NCBI RefSeq assembly: GCF_964355755.1
Contig: NC_092679.1
Span: 13,809,432 to 13,873,431 of the forward strand
Reading direction: 5' to 3'
Length of the DNA stretch: 64,000 nt
Source: Antedon mediterranea
Taxonomy: Eukaryota; Animalia; Echinodermata
This document shows, one piece after another, positions 14,468 through 44,510 of this stretch (position 1 is the stretch's first letter; every line of letters starts with the position of its first letter). Position numbers and translations under genes: made by a program. Under the pieces are notes generated by a model. That model made no database searches and was not told the origin of the DNA. It worked only from the letters and a program-made list of their open reading frames with translations.

Positions 14468-15510
14468 CGATAAAAATATGGTATAAAAATATCTAAAGCT
14501 GATCTGTATTGTACTGTACTATAAAAACAATCAGGTCCAGTGCGGTAGACAAATCATCAAACTGATGTGATTCCTAGGCCAAAGGAGTGCCCTTTCTAGA
14601 TAAAGTGCAGCGGGAAATTCAAATTGTCAATGGTACACATATGTCATTCAACACTCGAAAGGTGGCCTAGCGGAGCTCGTTATTGAATGTCCGCACAGTA
14701 CGACAGTCCGTTCGGATACAACCGTAGCACAATCGTTATAATAGACCAATGAAAGTAAGCATATAAACGAAAACAAGATTATCAAATGCCTGAATAATAA
14801 AATACAATGATGACTGTAGCAAAATCAATGGCGTCAAACAGATGGCATTGAGCTTGAGCATGTAGCCTACATGAAAATGTGATCATTTTGTTATAGGGCC
14901 TAACTAACTGGGAAGTATTAACCTCTGTGTATCCCTGCAGCATCTATAGAGATTGTTCATCCAAAAGGACGAAAATTTATAAATAAATAACCTACTGTAA
15001 TATATAATAATAATATTCATTAGTAGTTTAATGACAAAATCAGTAGCATTAGCATAACAATTGCTTTAGAGTGAACATTACCTATTATTATTGAAACCAG
15101 ATGGAATTGTGTTCACAGTTATAAACAGTTACACCAAGGAAAATCCATCGGTTTCGTTTTTGTTTTAAACAAGTTTGCAATTATGTGTCTTGAAAGTATT
15201 ATTTTGATCACATGATGTCCATACATGTTTCTTTTCATTCGGACCACCAAAGCTTTGAATTGTCGCTGTCATCCACTGTCATAATGCGAAGTTAGACTAT
15301 GCTTTAATTAGGAATTAGAATACACTCTATATAATGAATACATTTAGTTTATTCTGTGACAGTACTCAGTTCACTAAAACGAAACTTGGCTCTGGGTTTT
15401 CACCACGTTCTCGGAATACATACATCATAAGAGTAACTTTCTATCAATTAAATTTAAATCATTAAAACAGTTTCTGATACATTGAATTCCTATACCACTG
15501 TTTTGTTTGT

Positions 15511-20989: not shown

Positions 20990-21480
20990 ATGAACGTAGA
21001 GACTACGCTATTGCTTGTATTAAGTACAAATGTATACATGGTATTGCACCTACCAGTATTTGCAACGATATTGAAATGGTTTACGACCAACATGGATTTT
21101 CCCAAGATGTTCCCAATCTCTGAATGTTATACCACCTATGCCAAATGGCTTATTACTGAACGGATCGCTAAACAGTTCAGGAGCAAAAGTTTGGAATAAA
21201 ATACCTGTAAAAATTCAAGATATAGTTTGTCTGTAAATAGTTTTAAAATTAATTATAAAAGCATTTCTTAAAAAAATAATTGTATTTCCACTATTATTTT
21301 TAAAGTTCTATATTCACTGATTGTTTCATTTATTTATTTATTTATTTTTTTAATTTCTTGGGTTTTTTGGGGTTTTTTAAGTTGTTTCATTGCAGGACCA
21401 TATTGAAAAACAGAATTTTTTCTTTTCTAAATTATGTTATCCTGCCTAAATATATTTTAATAAACAAAATAAAATAAAAT
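20990..21480 (+). mobile_element. 3' fragment of a LINE
   Basis: Degenerate RT C-terminus (SGAKVWNKIPVKIQ), T-rich 3' UTR, AATAAA and (AAAAT)n tail. Confidence 0.55.
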
Positions 21481-22679
21481 TTTGCAAAGCAGGCTCGTTG
21501 AGCTTGTGCACTCTTTGTGTTCATAATCAGTGTACCATGTTCTGCATACCTCAATTCAATTCAATTCAAATTAACATTTATTTCTTCCACAGTAAAATAA
21601 CAACAAATATTCAATATAATTGTAAAATGAAGGAAGAGGGCAAAACTAAAAAAGTAACGCCAGATGAAAAACAGAAATTATATTAATCAAAAGACCTTGT
21701 GACAAGCAAGCCCTTAATAAATAATATAAATAAAAATTACAAATTAATTAACGTACAAAAACACACAGACAGGACAGGGCAAAAAAAAGAGAAAAAATGA
21801 ACAAACGATCATGTGATATAAAAGCTGATGATAATATAAAAAAACATTTTATAAATCATATTTTGACAAAAGAAATTTGTTTGGCTTTATGAGAGAAAAT
21901 TTTCCTGGAGGGGGTTGCAATGATTTCAGGAGAAAGGTCATTATATAATTTAACACCGCTATAACGGACATTGTGTTGGAGCAAGGTAAGTTTGGGCTGA
22001 GGAAGATGAAGTTTGTTGCAAGTTCTAGTAGAATAGGAGTGAGTGAGTTTTTGAAGAAGAAGCATAAATTGGATGGAAGAAGAGAATGCAAAGCTTCGTA
22101 AACAGAGATTGTGTAATTTATTAATGTCATAAATAGTTAGTAAATTTAAATTTTATAAAAGAGGGGACCCGAATGATCAAGGGCTAGCGAATCAGATATA
22201 ATGCGTACCGCCTTCTTTTGGAGCTTATGAATTTGATAGAGATTTGATTTAAAATGATTGGCCCAGACAATATTACAATAGGTAATAAAAGGAAGGATAA
22301 GAGAGGAATAAATAGAATGTAAGATTGAATTAGGAAGGAAAAATGGAAGGCGATAAATAATAACGATATTTTTGGATATTTTTAATTCTTTTATATGTTT
22401 TTTAAAATTGAGTTCGTAACATTATTAAGTTCGCGATTAATAGAAAGAAAGAGGGAATCAAGATTTGAATTAGAATAAAATATGGTGGTGTCGTCAGCGT
22501 AAAGGTAGAACGTTAAATTTTTAGATGAGTTTGGTAAATCATTTACATAAAGAAGAAATAAAAGAGGACCGAGGAGGGAACCCTTTTTAGATTGATTAAT
22601 AAGAACGAAATGCGTGTACAGAAAAGAGTATTTGCTTAAAAATAAATCATATGCTGCGTTGGGGTCCCGGGCATTGATG

Positions 22680-25600
22680 CACCCGATTCTGCTACTGTCC
22701 ACATGTGCTATCTGTAAAACTATAGCAAGTTATACACGTTGTTGTCTGCTATAAATGCTGTACTTTTAACACACGGTACACTGTCTGTAGCACAGTGTCT
22801 GTTGACAATTTACAATGATGTACTGTACAACCATAGATAGGCAGGTTTTCGTACTGCCATGCAAGAATGGATAGGTGTTTTCCGCCGCTTTTAGGCCTTC
22901 TTGTCAATTATTGTTATTATTATACGAATTACGTAATTAGTTTAGTAGCTCATCTACCTTTTTAGCAGGGCATAATGAATATTGTAGCTAGGCTAGGCCT
23001 ACTAGTCTAGCGGGAAATCAACCAATTATTTGGTTGGATACGAGTTTAGGGTAGGAAGTTAAGTACGAGTTGGCATGGGTACGAGTCGACCAGGGGTGAA
23101 TCGACCAGGGTACACCCGGCCGCCCTACTAGAGCATAGGCTACAGGCCTGCAGGAATGGGAAATCTGTCCTAGCTATAGGCATAGGCCTACATTGGGACG
23201 CCCAAAAAAGCCATCCCATGAGCATAAAAAGGCCTCGTAGAGCCAGACGTGTTAGCCTATACTACACAGTACTAACTACTAGTACGTCTACCATTTATTA
23301 TAGTTCCATGGTACTATACTACGGATCACTACTATCTAGGCCTAGCTAGTATGCTAGAGTTCCAGTAATTTCGGTCGCGTTTTCGGCCTACTTATCAGGA
23401 GGGCATGTGAGAGGTGAGGTAGGTTAGCCCAGCTAGGCTAAACTAACCTGTAAGTAGTATTCTAGCATGGGAACGAGTTGACACAGTGGTACGGGTTGAC
23501 CCTTATCATTTTCTAGGGTGCTGGTCAACCTACCCATGCCAACTCATACCCAATTTGGCTAACCCGTACTCAAATAATTGGTCAAATCGTACCAACTTTG
23601 GCTAACCTGTACCAAAACTTTTAATAGCATTAAACATGGATACTGGTCAGCCCATGAAGAGTACGAGCCAGCCCTTGATGATTGCTAGAGTGCGAGCCAA
23701 CATTTTGGGTACGAATATCCCAAAATTTGGTTACCAGTTGGAATTGCGGGTTGACCTGTATTCTTCTAGCTAATCTTACTAGGCCTCGAGTAGGTCTACG
23801 CTAAATTCCGGCTACAATAATGGTCTATTCTGTTTATAGCTTTATTGATACTGGGTTCAAATCTGGGTTGGGACGGCTTTTTCTCATTCAAAAACAGATT
23901 TCCTTATAATAATAAAATAATATCGGCCTATGAATTTAACTTAATATTGTATTGTTTACATAATATTAGTAATTCCCATTGCATTTATTATTATTATTAT
24001 TATATATTTTACGGTTACCCCTTAATTATAGTAACTATAGTATAACTTCCTTGTTATATTTTACAATATTGTCTTCATAATTCAGCAATTTTTTTTTTCA
24101 CAGCACAAATTATCATACTGAATCATCACACACCAAGTCTCATGAAATCTCTACTGTATTTCTGCAAGCTAATGCAGCTACATGGTATTGCCTTGAGGCT
24201 AAATTACACTGTATACTGGCACTACCATCATTCCTAGCCCACACGTAAGTACAGTCGTGTACTACTGATTCCATCCTGTGGTCAAGGCTTTATTTGCTCT
24301 TATGCTTATTTCCTCTTACATACAGAGTATGTATGGCTTCTAATTTGCTTTTATACCGGTTAATTTAAAAATCATTTATGCCTATTGGTGCATAAAGATC
24401 AAATTTAGACTGTAAATACTGGAATAATCACCCAAAATTTATTTCACAGCTAGAAAAAAGCATACAGAGTTTTTTGTTGTTTGTTTTATTCATAACTGTT
24501 GAATTGCATCCCAATACATGGTACCTATTGGTATTATATCTATAAATATAAAGTACTCTCTTATAAATAGATGTATTTCTCCAAACTACTCCAACTATAG
24601 TATACTAATAATATATGTACTATTAGCATACTACTGTACACTTTGTAGACAAGAAATAAGTTGTATCCACCTAGAGGACTTATGTTAGTACTGTACAGTC
24701 GATCGTCCTCTCACTGGCCTGGTCAACATAATCTACGCCTAGATTATTACAGTAATTAAAAAGTACATTATTAAGAGATTTTTTTTTTTTTGCAGAAATC
24801 AAAGTTATGTGTATAGAAAGCAGTACTCGTATTAAAAACTAAGCAGGTTGTACTGAACGCAAACTGGCAGGATATTTTGAATATTTTTTGTTCATTTTCC
24901 ACGAACTGGAGACAAAGACATATTACGACCCTTTTATTAAAATTTATTTGGATAGACCTCCATGTAAATTCATTAAAGGCTATATGATTGTTTTATATTT
25001 TAATAATGTGATAGTAGAAAGCCATTGTGCATAATGAGGACTATGAATCTAATATTTACTTGCATTCTCATCTTTTTAACATTTTATTTATAATGCTGGT
25101 AATGAATTTACTATTGAAAAGGTCATGTTTCCACTTATCTCAAATGTTGGCACCCGGCCCACCTCTAACCTTGGTAGAACTGACTGTGTTCTACCTTTCT
25201 ACATGAGTACATATAGTAGTGTTTCCACCATACTACTTCAACCTGGTAATTGAATAAATTTCATTGGGGTAACATTTAAACTAATTATCACCTTTAACAT
25301 AAAGTATCCTCCTCCTGAAACACGTATTTGTACTGTACTTCATCCATTACTTAATACTAATTTATGTGATTTATGTCTAACTTCAGGAATGATCTGAAGC
25401 TAGAAGAACGAATTTCTGTACACATATAAAAAATAAACCAATGTTTTCCTAATAATTTAACCCCTAGGTTGATAACTAACAAAGAAATTATTGAAATTAT
25501 GTTCTCACAATATATAGGTGTACTGTATCTACAATGCATGCTGCTGTACTTGTTTTTAACCGCATAATGGCATTGAAAACAAGAATGTTTTATAATTATT

Positions 25601-28600
25601 ATAGGTTATTTCTAAATATTAAAGGTCTGAAACAGAAACTAAATGTTACCAAACTATGTTTTTGAAAATCTCTATGATATAATATAATAATATGAACATA
25701 ATATTAAATTATATTGATAATCATCATGTCCTTATAAATTCATTTATATTTCTTTTGTGTAATATAGTTCATATAATATGTATTAAATAAATTGGTAAGG
25801 CCCTATATTGTTTATATTTAAGGAAAGTTTATATACACTATTATTTTATGCCTACCAATATAGTATTAATTGTTTATGTAACTATTTTGTCTAATTGCAT
25901 TGATTTTTTGTATAGGCCAATGGCATTAATGTTTTTCTCAAAGCAAATTAGCCTAATAATGCCATATTTAGACACATAATTCTTTGATTTCTGATATTGT
26001 ACTTGTGTATGCATTACTAAAATAGTAGTTATTTTATTTCATTTATAATGTATGTATAAACATTTATTCAGTTTTTTTTTTACCTTTTTAAGTTTAAAAA
26101 ATATTAAAATACCTATCAACCTTTCTGTTATTGTTACTATTATAATATTTTTTGCAGAAGATTGATTTCAATAAAAAAATTTAAAACATTTAATTTGACT
26201 TATACTGTACTATGTTAGTTCAGGAGATGAAGTGTGTGTTGGTAGAATCTGGTGTGTTTGAGGTTGGTGATGTGAGGTGTATTTTTGTGACTTTAAGACC
26301 TAAATTAGATGTTTTCTGAAGAAAAGAAGCGAATAGGCTTCCCAATAAAATAGTATGTAACAGTGTATATTAAAGTACATTGAATGAATTCGAGCGGAAA
26401 AATAACACACATAAAAAAACATTCATTTCCTTGTCGAAAAGCGCCCTCTCTAGTTTTCTATTAATTTATTAATAATTATTATTAATTAATGAGTAATATA
26501 AACATATTTTTAACATTTGATGATGGAAGCTGATACTACTCCAAACAAAGTTTCATACCTCCAAATTTCATCAACGTATTCAAAGCACTTCAATAAATAT
26601 CACATTGAACATTAAAAATTAGGGTTATGGATAGAATTTTGCTTAAAACATATACAAAAAACATCGATAAAAAAATTTTTCGTATTCAAAAACATTTGAT
26701 ACTTGGTATAAATGTTCAATATAGGTTGCTCCATCCATATTGCAAAAAAAAAAATGACTATCGAGCCATATTACTGATTTTTTAAATTTACGTTTTTACA
26801 AAATGTACACTTATGAAAGACCTTACAATTCCAATGCATTTTTTAAACCTAATAACGATTTTGAAAAAAACAACCAACAAAATACGTTCATGAATGAAAT
26901 TTTGTTTCTGTGAATAGAGCAACCTATATTGAACATATAAAAGAAGTTTCAAATGTTTTTAAATTCGGAAAGTATTTTTTATCGATGTTTTTTGTATATG
27001 TTTTTAAGCAAAATTCTATCCATAACCCTAATTTTTAATGTTCAATGTGATATTTATTGAAGTGCTTTGAATACGTTGACGAAATTGGGAGGTATGACAC
27101 CTTGTTAGGAGTAGTATCAGCTTCCAGCATTAAATGTTAAAAATAAGTTTATATTACTCATTAATTAATAATAATTATTAATAAATTAATAGAAAACTAG
27201 AGAGGGCGCTTTTCGACAAGGAAATGAATGATTTTTTTATGTGTGTTATTTTTCCGCTCGAGTTTATTCAATGTAGTGTAATATACACTGTTATATACAT
27301 ACTATTTTATTGGGAATTATTTTTGTGTGAATCATCTTGGAGTTGTTTGAAAGCCTATCCACTTACTTCTTTTCTTCAGAAAACATCTAATTTAGGTCTT
27401 AAAGTGACAAAAATACACCTCACATCACCAACCTCCAACACACCAGATTCTACCAACACACACTTCATCTCCTGAACTAACATAGTACAGTATAAGTCAA
27501 ATTAATTGTTTAAATTTTTTTTATTGAAATCAATCTGCCTCAAAAAATATAATAATAGTAACAATAACAGAAAGGTAGATAGGTATTTTAATAATTATTT
27601 TTAAACTTAAAAATGTAAAAAAAAACTGATTAAAAGTTTATACATACATTATAAATGAAATAAAATAACTACTCTTTTAGTAATGCATACACAAGTACAG
27701 AATATCAGAAATCAATGAATTATGTTTCTAAATATGGCATTTAGGCTAATTTGATTTGAGAAAACATTAATGCCATTGGCCTATACAAAAAATCAATGCA
27801 ATTAGACAAAATAGTTACATAAACAATTAATACTAATATTGGTAGGCATAAAATAATAGTGTATATAAACTTTCCTTAAATATAAACAGTATAGGGCCTT
27901 ACCAATTTATTTAATACATAATATATGAACTATATTACACAAAAGAAATATAAATGAATTTATAAGGACATGATGATTATCAAAAATAGTCAATATAATT
28001 TAATATTATGTTCATATTATTATATTATATCAATCATAGAGATTTTCAAAAACATAGTTTGGTAACATTTAGTTTCTTTTTCAGACCTTTAATATTTGGA
28101 AATAACATAATAATTATAAAACATTCTTTTTTTTAATGCCATTATGCGGTTAAAAACAAGTACAGCAGTATGCATATGTAGATACAGTACACATATATTA
28201 TTGTGAGAACACAATTTCAATAATTTCTTTGTTAGTTATCAACACCTAGGGGTTAAATTTTTAGGAAAACATTGGTTTATTTTTTATATAAATTATATGT
28301 GCAGAAATTCGTTCTTCTAGCCTCAGATCATTCCTGAAGTTAGACATAAATCACCCAAATTAGTATTAAGTAATTAAATGAATAGTAGATGAAGTACAGT
28401 ACAAATACATGTTTCAGGAGGATACTTTATGTTAAAGGTGATAATTTTACCCCGATGAAATGTATTCAATTACCAGGTTGAAGTATGGTGGAAACACTAC
28501 TATATGGCAAATTAAATGTACTCATATAGAACACAGTCAGTTCTACCAAGGTTAGAGGTGTGCCACAATTTGAGATAAGTGGACACATGACTTTTTCAAT

Positions 28601-30851
28601 AGTAAATTCATTACCAGCATTATAAATAAAGTTTTAAAAAGATGAGAATGTAAGTAAATATCAGATTCATAGTCCTCATTATACACAATGATTTTCTACT
28701 ATCACATATTAAAATATAAAACAATCATGAAGCCTTTAATGAAATTAAATGGAGGTCTATCCAAATAAATTTAAATAAAAGGGTCGTAATATGTCTTCGT
28801 CTCCAGTTCGTGGAAATTGAAGTTAGGATTCCATCATTTCAACAACAAAAAATATTCAAAATTTTCCTGCCAGTTTGCGTTCAAGAGTACAACCTGCTTA
28901 GTTTTAAATACGAGTACTGCTTTCTATACACATAACTTTGATTTCTGAAAAAAAAAATCCCTGTAATAAATGTACTTTAATTACTGTAATAATCTAGGCG
29001 TAGATTATGTTGACCAGACCAGTGAGAGGACGATCGACTGTACAGTACTAACATAAGTCCTCTAGGTGGATACAACTTATTTCTTGTCTAAAAAGTGTAC
29101 AGTAGTATGCTAATAGTACTATTATTAGATTAGGTAGTTGGAGTAGTTTGGAGAGATACATCTATTTATAAGAAAGTACTTTATTATTATAGATATAATA
29201 CTAATAGGTACCATGTATTGGGATGCAATTCAACAGTTATGAATAAAAAAAACTCTGTATGCTTTTTTCTGGCTGTGAAATATAAAATTGTTAAATGAAA
29301 AAGAAAATTTAGGGTGATCATCCCAGTATTTACAGTCTAAATTTGATCTTTATGCAACAATAGGCATAAACGATTTTTTAATTAACAGGTATAAAAGCAA
29401 ATTAAAAGCCTTACGTACTCTGTATGTTGGAGGAAATAAGCATAAGTGCAAATAAATCCTTGACCACAGGATGTAATTCACTATTTGGAATCAGTAGTAC
29501 ACGATTGTGTTGGACCATAATGTGGTCCAGGTTGACGGGCCAGGAATGATGGTAGTGCCCAGTATACAGTGTAGTTTAGCCTCAAGGCAATACCATGTAG
29601 CTGGATTAGCTTGGAGAAATACACTAGAGATTTCATGAGATTTGGTGTGTGATGATTCAGTTTGATAATTAGCTGTGAAAAAAAAGTGTTGAATTATGAA
29701 GAAAATATTGTAAAATATAACAAGGAAGTTATACTATAGTATAATTAAGGGGTAACAGTAAAATATATTATAATAATAAATGCAATGGGAATTACTATTA
29801 CTACTAATATTATGTATACAATACAATATTACAGTTAAATTCATAGGTCGATATTATTTTATTATTATAAGGAAATCTGTTTTAGAATGAGAAAAAACCG
29901 TCCCAACCTAGATTTGAACCCAGCTATCAATAAAGCTATAAAGCTATTGGTACGAGTTGACCAATTATTTGGGTACGAGTTAGCCAAGTTTGGTACGAGT
30001 TGACATGGGTATGTTACGGGTTGACCAGCACCTAGAATACGGATAAAGATCAACCCGTACCCCCATGCCGACTCATTCCCATCCCATGGTAGAATACTAC
30101 TTACATGTTAGTTTAGCCTAGCTGGGCTAACCTACCTCACCTCTCACATGCCCTCCTGAAAAAACGCGACCGAAATTACTGGAACCCTACCCTACCAGAC
30201 CTAGATAGTAGTGATCCGTAGTACCATGGAACTATAATAAATGGTAGACGTACTAGTACTGTGTAGTATATGTTAACATGTCTGGCTCTACGAGGCCTTT
30301 TTATGCTCATAGGATGGCTTTTTTGGACGTCCCAATGTAGGCCTATGCATATAACTAGGACAGATTTCCCATTCCTGCAGGCCTGTAGCCTATGCTCTAG
30401 TAGGGCGCCCGGGTGTACCCTGGTCGATTCACCCCTGGTCGACTCGTACCCATGCCAACTCGTACTTAACTTCCTATCCTAAACTCGTATCCAACCAAAT
30501 AATTGGTTGATTTCCCGCTAGACTAGTAGGCCTAGCCTAGCTACAATATTCATTATGCCCTACTAAAAAGGTAGATGAGCTACTAGACTAATTACGTAAT
30601 TCGTATAATAATAACAATAATTGACTAGAAGGCCTAAAAGCGGCGGAAAACACCTAGGCCTAGGCCTATCCATTCTTGCATGGCAGTACGAAAACCTGCC
30701 TATGGTTGTACATCATTGTAAATTGTCAGCAGACACTGTGCTACGGACAGTGTACCGTGTGTTAAAATTACAGCATTTATAGCAGACAACAACGTGTATA
30801 ACTAGCTATAGTTTTACAGATAGCACCTGTGGACAGTAGCAGAATCGGGTG
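22680..30851. mobile_element. 8.2-kb non-coding foldback DNA transposon (~4-kb inverted arms), P/Galileo-like hallmarks
   Basis: Termini CACCCGATTCTGCTACTGTCCAC / GTGGACAGTAGCAGAATCGGGTG; 7-bp TSD ATTGATG at 22673-22679 and 30852-30858; arms stay inverted to ~26730/26915; removing it restores the LINE frame (SWDDVINARDPNAAYDLF). Confidence 0.9.
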
Positions 30852-32125
30852 ATTGATGACATCGTCCCAGGAACAATTTGATAGGTCAGTGTGAAATTTA
30901 TTAATATTATTGACGTTAATTTGCGTTTTATATTATTATTGTTAGTATTATTTTAGCTTTACTTGAGATGTTAAAAACAGGGAGATGATCAGTAACATTA
31001 CCAATATTTGAAGATTCAATTTCATTTGTAATGATATTGTCTAAAAGCGTAGCAGTATAGGGAGTAATCCGTGTAGGTCTATGAATAAGACTGATATAGG
31101 AATTATTAAAAAGGCAATTAACAAAATGTTTTGTATTATCATCACTCAAATTTTAGTACATCAACATTAAAATCTCCTAAAATATAGATACGCTTGTTTT
31201 CTTTGGAAAGTCTTTTAAGTAATAAATCAAGTTGCTCGTTTAATATGGAATATTAATTATATCAATATTCTTATCATTAGTTTTTATTTCGATAAAATGG
31301 TATTCACAAAAGTATGGACTGGATGACAAATCGGTTTTAAATGAAAGACCGTCTCTGACATACATAAGAATGCCACCACACTTGTACGTACGTGGTTTAA
31401 AAGTAATAGAATAATTAGGAATATTAATAAGAGGGTTTTCATGTTTCATACATGTTTCAGATACAGAAATTACATCAAAATTAAAATTTATAGAATATAA
31501 ACAGGATGTGAAGTTATCGAAATATTTTTGGATGCTTCTAGCATTAAATGAATACAAGAAAATTTTCTCTCATAATCCGAATTATAAGTTTGCAAAAATT
31601 CATGTGGTAAATAATACTTGGAAAAATTAACATCAGTAAAGTAGTGTTCATCTGGATCAATATCATTAAAATGTTTATTAGAAGTTGAATAGGGATTAAA
31701 CAAAATATTAGATAATCGATCGGGATTGTTAGCCATTACCGGCATTTAAATGGGGATAGTAGTATAGCAGCATAGTTGAACACGGTTGGAATATAACATT
31801 TGAACGTTAGATAACTATAATAATAATAACAACAACAACAGCAGGTGAGTTAGTAAATGAATATAATAAAGAAAACATCATAAAGAACGGAATCGTGATA
31901 TTATAATTAAAAAAACTTCGGTTAGCATTGTTAACTACAATATATATTTTAAGGCCTAGAGTGGTCATAAATGTTCAAGCGTTTAAGCCTTTTAGACACC
32001 TGGATAGATCCGACTGATTGCAGACAACTAATTTCTTCGATGCGTTGGTGAGTATGCATTTTCCCATCTTGAGTCCAGGTGGATTTGATTGATTTGGCAT
32101 ACTTCGTCTTAACGTCTCGTAGTAG

Positions 32126-33423
32126 TGTCACAAGTGACATAAGTTTTGTATTTATTGTGCAAGTCATTCTTATTTTTCCTTTTGTTTTCATTATTTGAAC
32201 CTTTCTTTTGTTTTAGGAAACTATTGTTTGAAGCCAGTGGAGCAGAGTGTTTGTGTGCAGAGAAGGAGTGTGTGGAGGTTGCTGATTGGAGGAGAGGTGT
32301 AAGAGTTGAGTTGGTGTGTGAGTTGCTGATTGGTTGAGAAGGATAAGGTGGTGGTATGTGTGCAATTGAGGGAAGGTTGAGAGGGAGATGAAAATTGAGA
32401 GGAGACAGAGAAGGAGGGCTATGTTATGTGGAAGCAGAAAGGAAGTAAAGTGATATATATGAAGTTAATAAATTGTGGGTTGGAAAGAATTATGGTGATA
32501 TAGAGCTGAAGCGGAAAGGAAATAAGGTGATATACATGAAGTTAGTAAATTGTGAGTTGGAAACAATTATGGTGGTATATAGCTGAAGCAGAAAGGAAAT
32601 AAGGTGATATACATGAAGTTATTAGATTGTGAGTTGGAAATAATTATGGTGATATAGAGCTGGAACAGAAATGAAATGAAATAAAGTGATATACATGAAG
32701 TGAATAAATCGAAGAATAACTGTTGGAAATAGCAGAATTAATTGCTTTTAAAGACTTGTTGAAAGTATCGAAGACTGACTTTATTGATACTGATATTATT
32801 TTACGTGGAAAAGGAGAAAGAAATAATTGATCGGGGAGCGGATTGCAGTGCAGAACATCAAGAAACATTTTAACTTTATATTTCATTTATTTATATGTCA
32901 GAAAATAGTTGCAGTTTGAGAAGAATTATAATTGGGAATACAAGCAGAACGGGAGCAGAGGCGTGGGAGTTGTTTAGTTGCAGAATCGTTTTAACTTTTA
33001 TCTTTCGAATTTGTTTTTGTGTCAGCGTAGGAGAAAAGGCAAGAAGGAACGATATTGTGGACATTTATTATTGTTTAATTATTCATCTTGTGATATTATT
33101 GTATTTGGAGGGGGGGGGGGGGTTCTTGGATTTATTTGACAATAAGAAGATTGTTGATATTTTGTCTGGAAGGATTGGGAATTTGGGAAAGTGTATACAT
33201 TGTGTGGGAATAGGGATACTGTTTCATTGTTTGAGAATTGCTTGGGGTTTTTTTTGTTGTTTTTTTTGGGGGGTTTGGATTATAAGAGGAAGAATTGGTT
33301 GTCAAGGATTATTAAAGTTACTTTTTACATTTATATGTGTACAGTTGTGGCTATTTACCGTTGTTTACCGGTGGTTACCAGATATTACATGTCCGAAAGA
33401 GCCGTAATTGCGGCTGTGTGACA
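32126..33423 (-). mobile_element. Solo LTR (copy 2, same family as 13001-14200) inserted in LINE ORF1
   Basis: TGTCACA...TGTGACA; TSD AGTAG at 32121-32125 and 33424-33428; removal restores ..KRSKLLRDVKTKY.. Confidence 0.9.
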
Positions 33424-34266: not shown

Positions 34267-35221
34267 GCGATTTTTTTTTTCGTACATAAGTTGGGGACCC
34301 CCTCATGAAACGTCACAAAATAAACATGAATAATTCATCAGTTAAATTTTCTTGTTCCGTGTGCACCCAAGCGTATAGCAACAAGAAGTGATTACACAAG
34401 TGCGGTACGATTCTAGGCCTATCTCCGCTGTTGTTGCGGCGTGCGATTTCATAGAAGAATAGCGGCGTTTTGTGTGGATTGTCGAAATAATCAGCCTTTA
34501 GTTTATGGTGTTTTTAATATAATTTTTTACTAAAGAATTACGTGTTAAAACTATAGTTTCTATTAATACTATTAGGCCTAATTATTAGTCTCTAAACCCA
34601 TGTCTATTCTAGTAGTAGCTGTGTGGGTGTGTGTGACGTGTGTGTGTTAGGTATGACCAAAGATAGTTACACTATAGTGTAACTATCTTTGGTATGACAC
34701 AATCCGAGTAATAAGTCAGCAAAATTAAACAATAAACATTACACAAAAATACATTTTTATTCTCGTGGGTCAAATCTTCCCATCTCATGTGTTCATATAC
34801 GCGCATTTTTAAAGTTCCTTTGAGTACATGCATATTGTTTGATAATAAAATAGCAGAATTAAAAAAATACAGTACACAAATTATACACATTCTTTATTCT
34901 TGTGGGTCTAAGCTTTCTTTGGGCTATGTCCAATGAATTACTACTTAGTTTAATGTCTTGCCTAGCTGTCGATTAGCCTCGACTCGACACATTTTGTGTG
35001 AAGAAGAGTGCGCGAAGAAGAGTGCGCGAAGGCAATCACGTGAATTTACTTATAATCCTAGGCCTACTGTAGAAAGTATCGTATCGCAGTTGTGTAATCA
35101 CTTCTTGTTGCTATACGCTTGGGTGCACACGGAACAACAAATTTAACTGATGAATTATTCATGTTTATTTTGTGACGTTTCATGAAGGGGTCCCCAACTT
35201 ATGTACGAAAAAAAAAATCGC
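34267..35221. mobile_element. Mutator(MULE)-like MITE in the LINE 5' UTR
   Basis: ~135-bp TIRs beginning GCGATTTTTTTTTTCGTACATAAGTTGGGG; 9-bp TSD AACCCGGAG at 34258-34266 and 35222-35230. Confidence 0.9.
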
Positions 35222-35337
35222 AACCCGGAGCGCGTCGCTCAAACACATCCGTTCACCATGAGAGCTTGTGTGAATGTATATGGCTCAGGCTATATTATTG
35301 TGCCAGTTCTGCGGTACATTTCATTTCGAAACCTAAG

Positions 35338-35382
35338 CTCTACTGACGAGATCTAATAAGATCGAAACAGTCTTGTCTGCAG
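35338..35382 (+). ncRNA. Type I hammerhead ribozyme motif (copy 1)
   Basis: CTCTA-CTGACGA-GATCT/AATA/AGATC-GAA-ACA/GTCT/TGT-C^TGCAG: intact catalytic core, 5-bp stem II, GUC cleavage site at 35377, imperfect stem I. Confidence 0.8.
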
Positions 35383-35611
35383 ATTGGATATTACACTCCT
35401 CTACTTTCTGCTATATACATATGTATGTTTTATAGAGCACTCTTCAGTTTGAAACGGTGCATTTTGTTGTGAATACTATTTGCATTTTGCAAAGCACGCT
35501 CATTGAGCTTGTGCACTCTTTGTGTTCATAATCCGAGTACCATGTCCCACATACCTGGCTCAGCCTTTATATTGTTCCAGTTCTGCGGTACATTTCATTT
35601 TGAAACCTGAG

Positions 35612-35656
35612 CTGCACTGACTAGATCTAATAAGATCGAAACAATACTGTCTGCAG
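35612..35656 (+). ncRNA. Type I hammerhead ribozyme motif (copy 2, core variant CUGACUA)
   Basis: CTGCA-CTGACTA-GATCT/AATA/AGATC-GAA-ACA/ATAC/TGT-C^TGCAG: perfect stems I-III, one core substitution, site at 35651. Confidence 0.75.
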
Positions 35657-37382
35657 ATTGGAGAGATTCTAGATGCATAACAAAAACGTAGATCCAGGCT
35701 AATGTACTTGCGCTTTATTTATACATCAAATATACATCAACATAATTTTATGATTCGGTGAAAATACAAAAATGCTACATATTTATATGCAATGCAATTG
35801 CAAATTTATATAATCATAAGCTTTCATTTTTATGCCATATATCAATATGTATGACTTTTAAGATTGTTTACTAACTTATTTAATACCCGAGTATATATTG
35901 TTGTGGCTTAAATGATGTCATTACATTGTTCAAAATATATTTGACATATGTTTGTGTTGTTATACATGTCATAAGTTTTAATTTGATACAAAAATTGACA
36001 TGTTTATTGTAACTGGGGCCTCACCGGTCACTTATTTGAGTTGAATAGGAGTCAACTAGCCACACTAGCTAGTGAGATTTCTATTATACGTCGCTTGGCA
36101 TTATGCAAATCAATCCAGGTAAGCATACGTTCAACAATGATTAAGTAATAGTTAGCTCAGTTACGCATACTGCCGTTTCATTTTTCACAAAGTTATGTAA
36201 TTTATTTATTACATATTATAAACACAAGAGGCAAAGAACATTAATTCTAAACCGCCCGGTGATATACTGAACAGCGGTCCGAGTTCGAGTCTCGGTTGGG
36301 GCGACTTTTTCTCATTCTCACAGATTTTCTCATTTTTATCGTTTCAAATTTATTATATATTATATATATTTCATGTAGTTCCGTGGTGTTTGTACGTCAG
36401 AAGCTTTAATTTAATACCAAACATGCCATATTAATTTCCCACGAAGTTATGTAATATATTATGGATGTGGCTTTGATGACGTCATTATATTGTGAAATTA
36501 TATTGTTCTTATGATAGTGGTATTGTACATGTCATATGCTTTAATTTGATACCAAACTTGCCATATTTAATTATTTGTTTAATTTTTTCACGAAGTTATG
36601 TAATATATAATAAGTGTGGCTTTGATGAAGTCATTATATTGGAAAATTATATTTTCTCATGTGAGTGGTATTGTACATGTAATAAGCTATAATTTGATAC
36701 TAAACTTGACATATTTATGTAATTTATATTTTTTAAATATTTTTCTATAGCTATATAATATATTAACAAGGCCATATACATGGCTGCAGTCGCGTGCTCA
36801 AGTTAGTGTTTACCGACCGACCAACCAACCGACCGAAATTGCTGAACATATTTAAAAATGTTGAAAATGTTTAAAAACATATATATACATATATTTTTTT
36901 AATTTACACGTGCGTAGCCTGTCACTTTTGACGTGCTCGTATAACGTAATTTCCAGTTGGAAAGTGAATCAAATATCATGACATTTATTAAAAGAAAGGT
37001 GCTGTGCGCGTGCAAAAATCTGCGCACTTATTGCAATTAAATTATTTTTTTTTTAAATTGCCTGAAACGTACTTTAATTTCATCGAAAATAAATTTGACA
37101 TTTTTGAAAATTTTAAGCGCGCGTACGCATGCGTTATATGCGCTACGCACGTTGCCATATGATGAAATATGATCTGAAATTTATGAGTACCAAATTTTAT
37201 TTAATTGTGATTCATGCTTGTGAAGATATGATTACACGTGATTTCGTTAAATCGTGCGTAGACCGCGTAATTTTTTAGTCTTGGCCATAAGAAATATACT
37301 CTGAAAATATGACTTACCGACCAACCGACCAACCGACCGACATAGTGAGCTGCAGAATATTCCCTTCATTTGAGGTAATCTA

Positions 37383-38063
37383 TGTTAACTTTGAAATGTA
37401 TAATGTCGCCCTCTATTTCATGTTTGGGGAGCAAGAGGGCAGACTTGCTCAGAGTTGTGCTTTGGGCAAGGATAGTTCATAGCCTAGATAAATACACTGA
37501 TAGTTAAAAATATGTACTGTAATCTATAGGTTCTGGTGAAGAAACAGATGTAAGTTTATGAGGCTTTATATTTAGATAATATAATCTTTTGTATCATTTA
37601 ACTGTAGCCTACTAGATAATTACAAATTACTGACTCAATTATACTATAATCTAGGCCTAGGCCTAGGCTAGGCCTACTGTTAAATTGAAGTAATGATGGT
37701 AATACAGTAATGATGAATCGATCATTTTCTATAAATCTAGTTTAATATGATTGTTGAGCTATTTAGCTTAGATGTTCCAATTGTTATACCAATTGATTAT
37801 TTAATTACAATGACGGCTTTAATTATCCATTAATTTACAGTTTAAACCGTTCGATCTATCGTTCGTTCCACTGCTGTGTGTTCGTTCAACATCTATTCAT
37901 TTTGTGCTCAACCAATTGTTCGACCATTCAACCAATCGTTTTACCAATTTGTCAAATCGTTCGTTTCATTGCCGTGTTGAATAAACATTATTTATATCTA
38001 TACCTTTGTGAACGCGTTTAATTCGTTTTGACTCCCAGAACCGCACGTGACGTCAAGGTTACA
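37383..38063 (+). repeat. 5' LTR of the BEL element
   Basis: TGTTAAC...GGTTACA; AATAAA at 37980; one mismatch seen versus the 3' LTR. Confidence 0.95.
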
Positions 38064-38106
38064 TAAGTTTAAAATCTATCTTCTACTGCAATAATCTATC
38101 TCTAAG

Positions 38107-41100
38107 ATGTTTGACGTTGAACCAAGTGATTCAGTGAGTTGCGTAAGCTCCAAACGCTCATCATCGAGCAGCAGATCTAGGATCCGGGTTAAGGCTGAAG
38201 CTGCAGCATTAAGGGAACGAGCTGCCAGACAGAAAGAAATGCATGACTTGGAAATGCAGGAATTGGTGCTCAAACAAAAGAAGGCTGATGTGGAATTGCA
38301 AATTGAAATCGGGGCAATTGAAGCTGCCGACAAAGTTTACAACGAAGCTGAACAGGACGAGGATGAGGCAGTAGATCGTGAACTCGAAGATCTTTCTCTA
38401 CCAAAGCTTCAAATTGAAACAACCACTCCCAAACTTCCATCAGGAAATCTGCCCGACCAACGATTTGCTCCTGATTATCGAGCAGATTATGTTCCAAAGG
38501 AGGAGACAGAACTGTTAGGGAATCCTATGCTGTGGCAGCCTACACCTCAACCAGCAGTGTTCCAACCATTTAATCTGGATGCTCCTGTATTCCACCAACA
38601 CAAGCAGATCGATGCCATAGATAGACTGGCATCCACAATGATGAGAGCACAAGATAAGCAAAATGAAGCATTGAGACAGATCGTCCAACAACAGCAACAA
38701 AGTGTTACTGCGCTTACCTTGCCTAACCCGTCAATGAAGTTATACAGTGGCAATCCTGCTGAATACTGCGAGTTTGTCACTTCATTCAAACATCTTGTTG
38801 AGAACAAAACTGTGAGCCAGAGTGCAAGACTGCACTACTTGGTACAGTACACGACTGGGGCTGTACAAGAGTTGATGAGAAGCTGTCTATCGATGAGTGA
38901 TGATAAAGGATATGTTGAGGCGAGACGCTTGCTAAAGGAAAGATATGGACAAGCATACAAGATAGCTGCTGCCCACGTTCAACTCTTGCTGGATTGGCCG
39001 ATTATCAAAGTCGAGGATGGCATAGCTCTACAACGCTTCTCTACTCAACTAACAAGCTGTGCAAATACACTTTAGGAAATTGGATACCTTAGCAAGCTAG
39101 ATAATCCAGACAATCTTCGGAAAATCATTGAACGTCTTCCGTATCGACTAAGGCTAAGATGGCGGGAAGTGGTTGACACTATCATCGTAAAGGAAAAGAG
39201 AGATGTAAACATTAAGGATATTACCAAGTTTGTCACCGATAAGGCTAGGGTAGCAACTCATCCAGTCTTTGGTAAAATAGAGCCAGTGAAGTCTACCAAT
39301 TCTCCAAATTCGGATAAATTATCGACCAACCACAAATCTAGCAGTTATGCCGTTCACAATTCTCAGTCAAACACACCTGTAACATCACAACCAACGTGTC
39401 CGCTATGCTGTGAGGACCATTGGCTCTCCAGATGTGAGCAGTTCCGACGGAAGTCACTCAACGACCGATGGAAATGTGTAAATGACAAGAAAATCTGTAT
39501 CAACTGTCTTACAGTTGGACATTTTGTGAAAGATTGTCAAAAGCAAAGTTTCTGCAAAATATCCGGATGCACGAAGAAACACTCAACATATTTACATCCC
39601 AAAGGTGAGACTGCAAGTAATGCTGGTACTGTTGCTGTACAACCAGTTCAGACATCTCCAGCAACCTTCAGTGGTGAACAGGTCAACATGTCGGCATCGA
39701 GAAGCACATCAACCGTTACTGGTCTTGCTGCCGTACCTGTGAGAGTCAAGGCTCCAGGAAGTGCCAAGCTTGTAGAAACCTATGCATTTCTTGATAGTGG
39801 ATCCAACACAACTTTCTGCACCACTGGTCTACTAAAGCAATTAGGGATATCGTCGAATACTGTAGACTTATCATTGACAACCATGAACGGAGTAAATAGA
39901 CCAATCCAGTGTGAACTTACAAAGTTGGAGATTTTGGATTTAAATCATGGACATTCCGTCTTACTTCCAAACGTCTATTCAGTGCAAACCCTACCAATTT
40001 CTACCGATACGATCGCTACTCCAGATGACATCAACAAATGGCCTCACCTAGCTGGGATTAAAGTAGATAAAATAAATGCAGATATTGGTATTCTCATTGG
40101 AAGTGATGTGCCAGAATTGCTACAACCGCTGGAAGTACGCGAATGCCACGATGGTGGTCCATTTGCCACTAGAACAATATTTGGCTGGGTTGTCAACGGC
40201 CCATTGGGAAGGAAGAACTCTGGATCAACACACTGCGCTAACTACATCGATTCACATGAAGAGTTGTCAACACAGTTCTAGGACTACTGTAATCTAGAAT
40301 TCAATGACAGCCTGTACAACCCGAAGGCTGCGATGTCGCAAAATGACAAACAGGCATTGCGAATTATGGAAAAAAGCGCTGTTTTGAAAGATGGACATTA
40401 TGAGATTGCGTTACCATGGAAGTTTTATCCACCAAATCTGAAGACCAACAAAATACAAGCTGAACGCAGACTTCAGTCCCTCAAACGACGTCTAGACAAT
40501 GATCCAATTGTATTTGAGAAATATCGCATGTTCATGAACGACTTGGTAAGAAAGGGCTATGCTGATAAGGTGGAAGTTAATGGTTCGGTACCTGAAGGAT
40601 GGTACTTACCACATCACCCAGTATTTCATCCTCAAAAACCTGACAAGGTACGTGTTGTTTTTGACTGTTCGGCGAGATATGGAGGCACATCATTAAACGA
40701 CCAGCTTCTACAGGGGCCGGACCTTACTAACACACTAGTCGGGGTACTAACCCGTTTCCGGCGAGAACAAATCGCTTTCATGGCGGACATTGAATCGATG
40801 TATTACCAGGTACGAGTACGAAAAAATGATTCAGACTACCTTAAATACCTCTGGTGGCCAGATGGCAATACCGAGAAGCAGCCTGAAGAGTACAAGATGA
40901 TGGTTCATCTGTTTGGGGGTGTGTCATCTCCCAGCTGCGCCAACTATGCACTAAAACGTAATGCAGAAGACAACCGAGATGACTTTGATGCAGAGACAAT
41001 CAAAACAGCGAAGGAAAGCTTTTATGTGGATGATTGTCTTCATTCTGTAAAGACAGAGCCAGAAGCCAAACAACTGATCAAACAACTTCAGGAACTACTA

Positions 41101-43665
41101 AACCAGGGCGGGTTCCGTCTGACAAAGTGGACGTCAAATTCAATAAATGTTATTGAATCAGTTCCGGATGCCGAAAGGGCAAAATCGGTGAAGGACTTGG
41201 ATCTGAACTTCGGTGGCATGATGTTAACTGAACGAGCATTAGGTGTCAAATGGAGCCTGTCAACTGACACATTTGGTTATAGTATCAACAAGAAAGAACG
41301 TCCAGCGACAAGACGTGGAATGTTATCAATAACAAGTTCGGTGTACGATCCACTTGGATTTGTCGGTCCATGCATCTTGCCTGCAAAGGCCATTCAACAA
41401 GAACTGTGCCAAAAGGGTTTAGGATGGGATGACAAGATTCCAGATGCTTGCAAAGCAAGGTGGGAGGATTGGCTCCAGGATCTTCCTAAGCTGGAGCAGT
41501 TCAGCATTCCAAGATGCTTCAAGCCTCTAAACTTTGAAAATATAGTTAAACGAGAACTACATCACTTCTCAGATGCTTCAAGTCATGGATATGGTGCAGT
41601 ATCTTATCTTCGACAAATCAATGTAAATGGAGACATCAGTTGTGCTATTGTGATGGCAAAATCCAGGTTAGCTCCTCTCAAGACGATGACTATACCAAGA
41701 ATGGAGTTATCGGCAGCTGTTGTTTCCACACGATTAGACAAAATGATTAAACAAGAACTGCAAACACCTATTGATAGTTGTACGTTTTGGACGGATAGCA
41801 CATGTGTTCTACGCTATTTAGAAAACAAGGAAACACGATTTCAGACGTTTGTAGCTAATCGAGTCACAACCATACTTGATCAAAGTGACGCAAGTCAATG
41901 GAGATTTGTGGATGGGTTACATAACCCTGCAGATGAAGCATCAAGAGGTATGACAGTAAATGAATTACTGATCAATCAACATTGGAAGGAAGGTCCAGAA
42001 TTCCTAAAGCAACCTGAGAGGACATGGCCACAAAGACCAGCAAACATGGGTGAAATCCCACAAGATGACCCAGAGGTAAAGGCAAAATCCACAGTCTGTG
42101 CTACTGGTATAAATGTAATTGACTCGATTTCATCAGTCATTAACTACTACTCATCATGGGAGAAGTTGAAGAAGTCGTTTGCATGGATTTTGAGGTACAA
42201 AGAAAAGTTACGAGAAGTGGTTCGCAGGCGTAAGGCTGGAGACGATGTTTCATTTAATAGAAATGACACAGTTGATCCAATCAATGTTTTGGAGATGAAA
42301 GGTGCTGAAATTGCTATCACGAAGCATGTACAGAAATGCTTTGAAGACGAGCAAGTTTGCCTGAAGCATGTAAGCCTATCTCAACCCTGCAATACCAAAA
42401 AGCAACGAGCACTACCAAAATCCAGCAAGATCTACAAACTCGATCCCATCTTAAGTGAGGGAGTGATCAGAGTAGGGGGCCGTCTTCAAAATTCACCTAT
42501 CAACGGTGACATGAAACATCAGATAATCCTACCAAAGAATCACCACATAGTGAAGCTCATTACTACATACTATCACCATTTATCAGGACACAGTGGACTA
42601 AAATACACACTGTCCCTAGTTCGACAGAAGTTCTGGCCGATTGATGCACGTACTGCAGTGAAGAAAGTTCTAAACGAGTGTTTCAGCTGTAAGAGACGCC
42701 AATCATCAGTTGGGAAACAAAAAATGGCTTCACTTCCGCAAGACCGAGTAACACCTTCGAAGCCACCGTTCACGTACGTTGGTGTTGACTGCTTCGGCCC
42801 ATTCGAAGTAAAAAGGGGGAGGTCAAATGTGAAGAGATATGGTGTCCTTTTCACGTGTCTCACTGTACGAGCAATCCACATCGAAGTTTCAAACTCACTT
42901 GACACGGAGTCATTCATGAATGCTATGAGAAGATTCATAGCACGAAGAGGACAGCCAGAAGAGATTCGATCAGATAATGGAGGAAACTTCAAAAAGGGAG
43001 AGAAGGAACTGAATAAGGCAATTAAAGAGTGGAATCACGGACAAATCCATGAATTCTTGTTGCAACGAAATGTGAAATGGTTATTCAATCCACCAATGGG
43101 ATCTCATCATGGAGGAGTATGGGAGCGCTGTATTCGGACAGTGAGGAAAGTCATGATGGCTGTGCTGAAACAACAAGCGCTTGATGATGAAGGCCTAAAC
43201 ACTTTAATGTGTGAAGCAGAGGCTATTGTTAATGGTCGGCCGATTACTAAGATATCGGATGACCCTCGTGACATGACGCCTTTAACTCCGAATCATTTAC
43301 TGCTGTTGCGAGGAGGGAACAGCTTACCTCCTGGTAACTTTTCAAAGGAGGATATGTATCGTCGACGATGGAAACAAGTACAGTACTTATCAAATGTGTT
43401 CTGGCGACGATGGGTACGGGAGTATTTACCGTCACTGCAACAAAGACAAAAATGGAATGTGCAAAAGAGAAACTTTGCTGTAGACGATGTTGTGCTTGTT
43501 CTTGACGAAAACACACCACGAAGTTCATGGCCATTGGGAAGAGTTCTTGAAGTGTACAGCAACCAAAAGGATGGACTTGTACGGTCAGTGAAAGTAAAGA
43601 CAAACACATCAACGCTTGTGAGACCAATTGACAAACTGGTCCTTCTTGAGAATGCGACCAACTAA
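38107..43665 (+). CDS. BEL/Pao gag-pol polyprotein; single frame interrupted by TAGs at 39073-39075 and 40279-40281
   Basis: Three track ORFs in one frame. Three Cys/His knuckles, protease FLDSGS, RT FYVDD, RNase H FSDAS, integrase HHCC plus VDCFGP/SDNG/WER. Confidence 0.93.
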
Positions 43666-43829
43666 TTGGAAATATGAACTTTTGAACATTACAGATTGTT
43701 CTTCTGCGTTTTATAAGATCCAATTTTGGAATTTATCTTTTCCTTATAAATTTTAACAATATTAGGTTTTTGTTGACATGTTTCTTTTTATGTAAAGGCT
43801 ATCCATACGGTGCCTTTAAGGGGCCGGAA

Positions 43830-44510
43830 TGTTAACTTTGAAATGTATAATGTCGCCCTCTATTTCATGTTTGGGGAGCAAGAGGGCAGACTTGCTCAGA
43901 GTTGTGCTTTGGGCAAGGATAGTTCATAGCCTAGATAAATACACTGATAGTTAAAAATATGTACTGTAATCTATAGGTTCTGGTGAAGAAACAGATGTAA
44001 GTTTATGAGGCTTTATATTTAGATAATATAATCTTTTGTATCATTTAACTGTAGCCTACTAGATAATTACAAATTACTGACTCAATTATACTATAATCTA
44101 GGCCTAGGCCTAGGCTAGGCCTACTGTTAAATTGAAGTAATGATGGTAATACAGTAATGATGAATCGATCATTTTCTATAAATCTAGTTTAATATGATTG
44201 TTGAGCTATTTAGCTTAGATGTTCCAATTGTTATACCAATTGATTATTTGATTACAATGACGGCTTTAATTATCCATTAATTTACAGTTTAAACCGTTCG
44301 ATCTATCGTTCGTTCCACTGCTGTGTGTTCGTTCAACATCTATTCATTTTGTGCTCAACCAATTGTTCGACCATTCAACCAATCGTTTTACCAATTTGTC
44401 AAATCGTTCGTTTCATTGCCGTGTTGAATAAACATTATTTATATCTATACCTTTGTGAACGCGTTTAATTCGTTTTGACTCCCAGAACCGCACGTGACGT
44501 CAAGGTTACA
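43830..44510 (+). repeat. 3' LTR of the BEL element
   Basis: Near-identical direct repeat of 37383-38063. Confidence 0.95.

What the first reader, a model, noticed from the sequence alone, without database searches (positions are those of the whole stretch)
35282..35662. Tandem type I hammerhead ribozymes 274 nt apart: a retrozyme-like self-cleaving repeat
Seen: two copies of stem I-CUGANNA-GAUCU(AAUA)AGAUC-GAAACA(N4)UGUC^UGCAG in a direct repeat, with predicted cleavage after 35377 and 35651. The two defects are complementary: copy 1 has the intact core but an imperfect stem I, copy 2 has perfect stems but CUGACUA. Their consensus is a complete hammerhead. The stem III loop differs (GUCU vs AUAC) while its pairs are kept, and the repeat ends about 10 nt after the second site. 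Known: metazoan non-LTR retrozymes and Penelope-associated repeats are tandem units of a few hundred nt carrying type I hammerheads and can yield circular RNAs. Inference: this is a decayed member of an unannotated non-coding, self-cleaving retroelement family with a ~274-nt monomer.
Basis: partly seen in the sequence, partly recalled or inferred. Interest (0 to 1): 0.85.

Follow-up and report, generated by a model that had tools for sequence, protein, structure and literature searches.

The report
Decayed copy of hammerhead retrozyme family
This is an old, probably dead 1.4-unit copy of a many-copy 274-base non-coding repeat whose typical member carries a complete self-cutting hammerhead motif, likely one of the known animal "retrozymes" that are thought to spread through small RNA circles.

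Summary
Observation confirmed. Two type I hammerhead motifs sit 274 nt apart (predicted cuts after 35377 and 35651). Only 108 nt are repeated, so this is a 5'-truncated 1.4-mer, not an array. Public contigs under two organism labels show a many-copy family (summed depth about 200x the flank). Its majority letters give an intact core and stem I, and both window copies are private decays of it. Family copies end sharply about 11 nt past the cut, at the end of stem I, in varied TA-rich flanks, and thin out 5'-wards. That is the footprint of Penelope-like target-primed insertion. Majority letters improve the predicted fold of the cut-to-cut circle by 14.5 kcal/mol (1 of 200 controls), so the unit's structure looks selected. 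The locus itself is likely dead: copy 2 has G8U, copy 1 is predicted to misfold, and the two defects cannot complement each other. The loop III difference is decay, not covariation. Cleavage, transcription, circles and the partner reverse transcriptase are untested. Verdict: new member of a known kind (animal non-LTR retrozyme). This scan has noted similar elements in other genomes (99 notes, at least 14 genomes).

The parts
35281..35377 (+). 5'-truncated upstream unit (last 97 nt of a 274-nt monomer), ending at predicted cut site 1
   Evidence: 89% to 35556-35651; 35229-35280 shows no significant likeness to the unit on either strand (35 and 310 of 500 shuffles score as well)
35333..35387 (+). 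Type I hammerhead copy 1: intact CUGACGA/GAAA/UC core, damaged stem I (C.C, U.G), private loop III GUCU; predicted cut after 35377
   Evidence: family majority has G, C at 35340-41 and G at 35335; predicted trapped in an alternative helix with 35303-35319 (pair probability 0.95, stem I 0.0 in the prefix fold)
35378..35651 (+). One full cut-to-cut monomer, 274 nt, GC 0.39, non-coding; 11 substitutions and 1 indel from the family majority
   Evidence: fold z -2.0 as it stands, -3.5 (circle) and -3.8 (linear) with majority letters; no Pfam hit in its frames of 45 aa or more
35607..35661 (+). Type I hammerhead copy 2: family-type stems I-III, core mutation G8U at 35622; predicted cut after 35651
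35652..35662 (+). 11-nt terminal overlap (stem I 3' strand, repeated from the unit's start): the family's fixed 3' end
   Evidence: summed depth falls 57-fold (X3) and 78-fold (X7) after 35663; loose ends at 35659-35662 are varied and TA-rich
21479..21551 (+). Second, 73-nt fragment of the same family (matches 35483-35555), no hammerhead
   Evidence: 90% identity, E 8e-23; carries the family-majority letters at 35502, 35534, 35536 and 35549

Best explanation
This is a decayed, 5'-truncated 1.4-unit copy of a many-copy non-coding 274-nt repeat family with a type I hammerhead motif at each unit junction, most likely an animal non-LTR retrozyme whose transcripts would cut themselves into unit-length RNAs, probably circularise, and be pasted back by a borrowed Penelope-like reverse transcriptase. 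Shown: the motif, the multi-copy family, the intact majority hammerhead, the sharp 3' end about 11 nt past the cut, TA-rich varied flanks, 5'-ward thinning, and partial-tandem junctions. Predicted by folding: a self-paired monomer in which the hammerhead stems cost only about 2 kcal/mol in the majority circle. Inferred: transcription, cleavage at GUC, ligation by an RtcB-type ligase, and copying by a Penelope-like RT/GIY-YIG protein that nicks AT-rich DNA and starts inside the RNA at the end of stem I. Every copy that ends past the cut must come from a circle or an uncut multimer, not from a cut linear monomer. Here copying ran 1.4 units and stopped. This locus is likely inactive.
For: Motif and spacing. 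Family depth at the core about 218x (X3) and 212x (X7) the 3' flank (summed contig depth, not a copy number). Majority letters give intact core and stem I. Sharp 3' end at 35659-35662 with TA-rich loose ends of low agreement (0.51-0.66; 25 contigs in X3, 23 in X7 among the rows shown), and depth about 20-fold lower at the unit's 5' end. Tandem and partial-tandem joints 35662->35398, 35659->35475, 35662->35493 (X3) and 35662->35542 (X7), one listing each (table 5c). One X9 contig holds a nearly unit-length copy (35389-35656) between TA runs. Majority letters lower the circle's predicted energy from -59.4 to -73.9 kcal/mol; 1 of 200 type-matched and 0 of 200 random controls do as well; 8 of the 12 changed sites are paired, 7 of them in long-range helices. 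Unit size, GC below 50% and no coding fit the description in PMC7229834. AT-rich targets, internal initiation, 5' truncation and partial tandems are Penelope-like traits (PMC11167929; PMC8557442).
Against: No cleavage, transcript or circle was seen. No Penelope-like RT was found or linked (no genome held; none in 47 local frames). Rfam scores are below threshold. No target-site duplication flanks this copy (longest shared word 6 nt). Long arrays are not demonstrated: only 1 listed contig of 337 laid (X3) shows the full tandem joint. The 5'-ward fall in depth may be partly a mapping effect of indels near 35422-35428. In linear monomer+11 folds, stem I probability is under 0.01 even with majority letters, and only 0.33 in the majority circle. 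8 of 9 predicted Xenopus retrozymes did not cleave in vitro. Runs X1 and X3 may be the source sample.
Confidence: 0.8

Rival explanations
1. The unit is the pseudo-LTR of an autonomous Penelope-like element; the many 3'-anchored copies are truncated ends of that element, and this locus is a partial tandem of pLTR pieces with no independent small-RNA life cycle.
For: Same footprint (fixed 3' end, 5' truncation, partial tandems, TA targets). 24 of 57 Xenopus retrozyme families match annotated repeats, almost all Penelope-like elements at their termini. A sister contig in X8/X9 shares the hammerhead end but has different upstream sequence.
Against: The hammerhead has a 3-bp helix III, a 5-bp helix II and a 10-position helix I, not the minimal form (no helix III, 7-8-bp helix II) described for Schistosoma Penelope-like pLTRs. 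The whole cut-to-cut unit folds as one closed structure. No RT or GIY-YIG hit in 47 frames over about 32.8-38.1 kb. 5' loose ends with 4 or more contigs agree poorly (0.53-0.72), rather than giving one ORF end.
Confidence: 0.12
2. A once-active ribozyme repeat now multiplied at the DNA level (satellite-type unequal exchange, segmental duplication, or carriage inside other transposons); the RNA is irrelevant.
For: The window is full of duplications and nested transposons. A variant lacking 10 nt of the core is about 9-fold deeper than the unit contig in X8 and X9.
Against: A fixed 3' end with heterogeneous flanks and variable 5' ends is the pattern of RNA-templated insertion. The majority sequence has an intact core and a better fold.
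Confidence: 0.06
3. A host-domesticated or otherwise functional ribozyme at this locus (for example processing a read-through transcript).
For: Copy 1 keeps all core nucleotides.
Against: Copy 1 has 7 mismatches and 1 gap from the majority over 108 nt, including stem I; forcing the hammerhead costs 14 kcal/mol in context. Copy 2 has G8U. The neighbours are transposon debris.
Confidence: 0.02

Closest known systems
Metazoan non-LTR retrozymes (coral Acropora 220-240 nt, mussel Mytilus 350-390 nt, axolotl 330/350 nt; Cervera and de la Pena 2020, PMC7229834, parts 2-4 of 6 read, supplement unreadable; Li, Clavereau and Pollet 2026, 10.64898/2026.07.22.740005, parts 1-3 of 5 read)
   Same: Type I hammerhead at unit junctions; unit within 150-450 nt; GC under 50%; non-coding; many copies; self-paired predicted circle with the hammerhead accessible; monomer and dimer-like copies.
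   Different: This locus has no two complete hammerheads in a row, so it fails the 'active' criterion of Li et al. No target-site duplication found. Helix III is 3 bp with a non-palindromic AUAC loop rather than 1-2 bp with a palindromic loop. RNA not shown. The core/stem II sequence was not found in the paper library (main texts only).
Penelope-like elements and their pLTR hammerheads (Cervera and de la Pena 2014, PMC4209133, part 1 of 4 read; Frangieh et al. 2024, PMC11167929, parts 1-2 of 4 read; Craig et al. 2021, PMC8557442, 12 passages)
   Same: Fixed internal 3' start point downstream of the hammerhead cut, AT/TA-rich targets, 5' truncation, partial tandems.
   Different: No ORF. The hammerhead is not of the minimal type. 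The 3' end lies about 11 nt past the cut; in the anole element the cut is 26 nt and the start sites 111-118 nt into the ORF. No inverted arm at this locus.
Rfam Hammerhead_HH9 (RF02275, clan CL00010)
   Same: Best covariance-model match for both copies; type I topology with CUGCA/UGCAG stem I and 4-5-bp stem II.
   Different: 27.4 and 23.2 bits against a gathering score of 52; lacks HH9's stem I bulges; not a member.

Membership tests
Type I hammerhead ribozyme | Core CUGANGA / GAAA / UH with helices I-III, open end in helix I | tested here: met
   Met by the family majority and by copy 1's core; copy 2 has G8U; copy 1's helix I is damaged
Type I hammerhead ribozyme | Self-cleavage at the UH site | not testable with these tools
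   Needs in vitro transcription
Rfam Hammerhead_HH9 / Hammerhead_1 | Score at or above the gathering threshold | tested here: not met
   HH9 27.4 and 23.2 bits vs 52; nothing at gathering level in the window
Animal non-LTR retrozyme | Non-coding unit of about 150-450 nt, GC under 50%, one type I hammerhead per unit | tested here: met
   274 nt, GC 0.387, no Pfam hit in its frames
Animal non-LTR retrozyme | Many genomic copies | tested here: met
   337 and 273 contigs laid on 323 nt in X3 and X7; summed depth about 200x the flank; second fragment at 21479
Animal non-LTR retrozyme | Head-to-tail tandem arrangement of units | tested here: inconclusive
   1.4 units here; one full and three partial tandem joints in other contigs; no long array seen, short contigs cannot show one
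Animal non-LTR retrozyme | Two consecutive complete hammerheads at the locus ('active' by Li et al. 2026) | tested here: not met
   Copy 2 G8U; copy 1 stem I damaged. Bears on this copy's activity, not on family membership
Animal non-LTR retrozyme | Stable self-paired structure predicted for the monomer circle | tested here: met
   Circle z -3.45 with majority letters, -2.06 for the window copy; control 1 of 200
Animal non-LTR retrozyme | Expressed as linear and circular monomer RNA | not testable with these tools
   Only contigs were available
Animal non-LTR retrozyme | No LTR, PBS or PPT; target-site duplication, when present, longer than 4 bp | tested here: inconclusive
   No LTR-like structure; no duplication above 6 nt in the flanks of this copy; PBS and PPT not searched
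Autonomous Penelope-like element | RT plus GIY-YIG ORF between pLTRs | tested here: not met
   0 of 47 frames of 45 aa or more in about 32.8-38.1 kb hit RT or GIY-YIG; elsewhere in the genome not testable
Autonomous Penelope-like element | Minimal hammerhead (helix III absent or tiny, long helix II) | tested here: not met
   Helix III 3 bp plus tetraloop, helix II 5 bp

The most novel reading that the evidence does not exclude
The family's footprint records rolling-circle reverse transcription of a ribozyme-made RNA circle by a Penelope-like enzyme that always starts at the outer end of hammerhead stem I. Each new insert then carries exactly the complete ribozyme, and inserts come out as permuted monomers and 1.4-mers. 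A core-deleted sister that is more abundant in two runs would show that the ribozyme's fold serves as the enzyme's start signal even when it cannot cut.
Probability: 0.3. Interest if true: 0.6.

Novelty: new member of a known kind. Interest (0 to 1): 0.3.

Why it matters
The locus itself is an ordinary dead copy of a known class of repeat, and the scan has met the class often. The family is of modest use. How animal retrozymes move is still a model (circle template, Penelope-like enzyme). A family with a sharp 3' end at the foot of stem I, TA-rich targets, permuted unit-length copies and a core-less sister gives exact predictions for where reverse transcription starts and whether cutting is needed.

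Tried and rejected
No whole genome is held, so no genome-wide copy count or Penelope partner search. Rfam at gathering level: nothing. Collection scans found no family member. Viral contigs gave 1 locus sharing only the 28-nt core/stem II, with unrelated flanks, and 0 for a stem I-III pattern. Prokaryote genomes gave 0 for a spacer pattern. No RNA holder listed; X5 is only guessed to be RNA, so it was not used for expression. Idea that GUCU and AUAC derive from a palindromic GUAC loop: rejected, AUAC has no listed alternative in the family. Idea that the two defects rescue each other in a dimeric fold: rejected from anatomy, since each core is joined to its own stem I 5' strand and both 3' strands are identical; copy 1's half could at best act weakly on either site. 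Inverted second arm, as in earlier scan notes: none at this locus and no strand-switch joint among the rows listed. Target-site duplication: none. Protein-atlas look-up for host group gave no answer; the host is called animal only from the BEL/Pao element (own knowledge). The supplement of PMC7229834 could not be read and may hold related retrozyme sequences; bioRxiv supplements are closed. No covariance model was built, because no full family sequences could be fetched.

Full report
Observation. Copy 1 has CUGACGA at 35343, stem II GAUCU(AAUA)AGAUC, GAAA, stem III ACA(GUCU)UGU and C17 at 35377. Copy 2 has CUGACUA at 35617 (G8U), the same stem II, ACA(AUAC)UGU and C17 at 35651. Stem I extends to ten positions, 5 bp, a G.A mismatch, then 4 bp; copy 1 adds a C.C mismatch and a U.G wobble. 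The core/stem II pattern occurs twice against 0 in 100 shuffles. A strict descriptor finds these two sites against 1 hit in 20 shuffled windows; the relaxed descriptor is not discriminating. Rfam's best match is Hammerhead_HH9 at 27.4 and 23.2 bits, under its gathering score of 52, and nothing in the window reaches a gathering score. The direct repeat is 108 nt at 89% (35281-35388 vs 35556-35662). The locus is therefore the last 97 nt of one unit, one full 274-nt unit, and the first 11 nt of the next.

Context. The window is AT-rich repeat-rich DNA with RT fragments and a BEL/Pao LTR element; BEL/Pao elements are animal, from my own knowledge. None of 47 frames of 45 aa or more across about 32.8-38.1 kb hits an RT or GIY-YIG family. 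The flanks do not resemble the unit on either strand, and they share no word above 6 nt, so no target-site duplication is seen. A 73-nt fragment of the spacer lies at 21479-21551 (90%). No whole genome is held.

Family. Twelve public runs hold part of the stretch; eight were laid, all as contigs (X1, X5, X6, X12; X3, X7, X8, X9). X12 had only 4 contigs, none on the element. In X3 (organism A, possibly the source sample) and X7 (organism B), 337 and 273 contigs lie on 323 nt. Summed depth at the core is about 218 and 212 times the 3' flank; this is not a copy number but shows a many-copy family. Majority letters give G at 35622 (97% of depth in both runs) and G, C at 35340-41 (X1, X5, X6), so the typical member has an intact core and stem I. 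No alternative letter at 5% or more is listed at loop III, so AUAC is the family loop and copy 1's GUCU is private decay. Against the majority, copy 1 has 7 mismatches and 1 gap in 108 nt, copy 2 has 4 in 107, and the full unit has 11 substitutions and 1 indel. This is an old insertion.

Ends. Depth falls 57- and 78-fold just after 35663. Loose ends at 35659-35662 (25 contigs in X3 and 23 in X7 among the rows shown; 141 rows not shown) are TA-rich and agree poorly (0.51-0.66), as expected for many independent sites. Depth declines about 20-fold towards the unit's 5' end, with varied loose ends on that side; indels near 35422-28 may add a mapping effect. Four contigs go back from the hammerhead end into the unit: 35662->35398, 35659->35475, 35662->35493 and 35662->35542. 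One X9 contig holds 35389-35656 between TA runs, a nearly unit-length copy permuted relative to the cut-to-cut RNA. The fixed end coincides with the end of stem I's 3' strand. A cut linear monomer would end at GUC, so templates must have been circles or uncut multimers (inference).

Structure. The window's monomer folds modestly better than shuffles (z -2.0; the other strand -1.3). With the majority letters applied in a script, the circle goes from -59.4 to -73.9 kcal/mol (z -3.45; linear -3.77). One of 200 type-matched controls and 0 of 200 random controls gain as much. Eight of the 12 changed sites are paired. So decay at this locus has broken pairs that the family keeps, which suggests selection on the RNA fold of the cut-to-cut unit. 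In the majority circle the hammerhead stems cost 2.1 kcal/mol (stem I probability 0.33). In linear monomer+11 folds stem I probability is under 0.01, which counts against easy folding. At native site 1 the stems cost 14 kcal/mol, because the truncated copy pairs its stem I 3' strand with 35303-35319. G8 changes abolish cleavage in a Penelope-like hammerhead (G8C), so G8U in copy 2 is likely lethal. The two defects cannot complement, as each core is joined to its own stem I 5' strand.

Mechanism. Most likely (0.8) this is an animal non-LTR retrozyme family. By the published model (PMC7229834), tandem transcripts self-cleave, monomers are ligated by a tRNA ligase, and circles template an RT from another element. 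The footprint here matches Penelope-like elements: AT-rich nicking and internal initiation (PMC11167929), 5' truncation, partial tandems and (TA)n targets (PMC8557442 passages). A 2026 preprint argues animal retrozymes derive from their pLTRs. Shown here: motif, family, ends, joints. Predicted: fold. Inferred: transcription, cleavage, circles, partner enzyme. Rivals are the pLTR of an autonomous element (0.12), DNA-level amplification (0.06) and a domesticated ribozyme (0.02).

Negative searches. The core sequence was not found in the paper library's main texts; the supplement of PMC7229834 was unreadable and could hold a relative. The scan's own notes hold no look-alike sequence and nothing from this genome, but 99 notes in at least 14 genomes match the words of this class. 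Three of them describe similar fixed start points and TA targets; they are unchecked AI notes and not counted as support. My note of the fixed 3' end came before that look-up.

Verdict. Interest 0.3. The boldest reading not excluded is circle-templated Penelope-type copying that starts at the foot of stem I, with cutting dispensable (probability 0.3, interest 0.6).

Noticed in passing
runs X8 and X9, contigs of 324 and 326 nt matching window 35603-35662: Sister sequence with the hammerhead end but a 10-nt deletion through the core and different upstream sequence; about 9 times deeper than the unit contig in those runs; one low-depth contig also in X3.
   Followed up: partly
window 35465-35538 and 35507-35580 (joints in X6, X7, X1): Family variants skipping 72 nt; the first would remove most of one predicted hairpin arm. 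One contig each, letters between not known.
   Followed up: no
window 34267-35220: Non-coding element with 148-bp terminal inverted repeats (96%) and a 9-bp target-site duplication (34258-66 / 35221-29), very deep in the contig data; Mutator-like by TSD length (own knowledge). It ends 60 nt before the retrozyme copy.
   Followed up: partly
window about 37382-44510: BEL/Pao LTR retrotransposon with 682-bp LTRs 99.85% identical (young); Pfam DUF1759, RVT_1, Peptidase_A17, integrase, DUF5641; its coding region is interrupted by two in-frame stops.
   Followed up: partly
window 22680-30851: An 8-kb fold-back: many nested inverted arms at 89-100% centred near 26800.
   Followed up: no
window 12999-13836 vs 32124-33056: Duplicated block about 19.1 kb apart at 98-99%, with a 77-bp tandem repeat.
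   Followed up: no
window 52924-54675 (-) and 12769-14518: 583-aa open frame for a cysteine-rich multi-pass membrane protein (weak DUF7630 hit, below cut-off), with partial duplicates near 12.8-14.5 kb.
   Followed up: partly
loci L001-L121: Many metagenome and viral contigs carry hammerhead-like cores with a GAUC/GAUC stem II, often with type I or type III-like flanking pairing; L079 has two copies 548 nt apart. Unrelated to this family outside the core.
   Followed up: no
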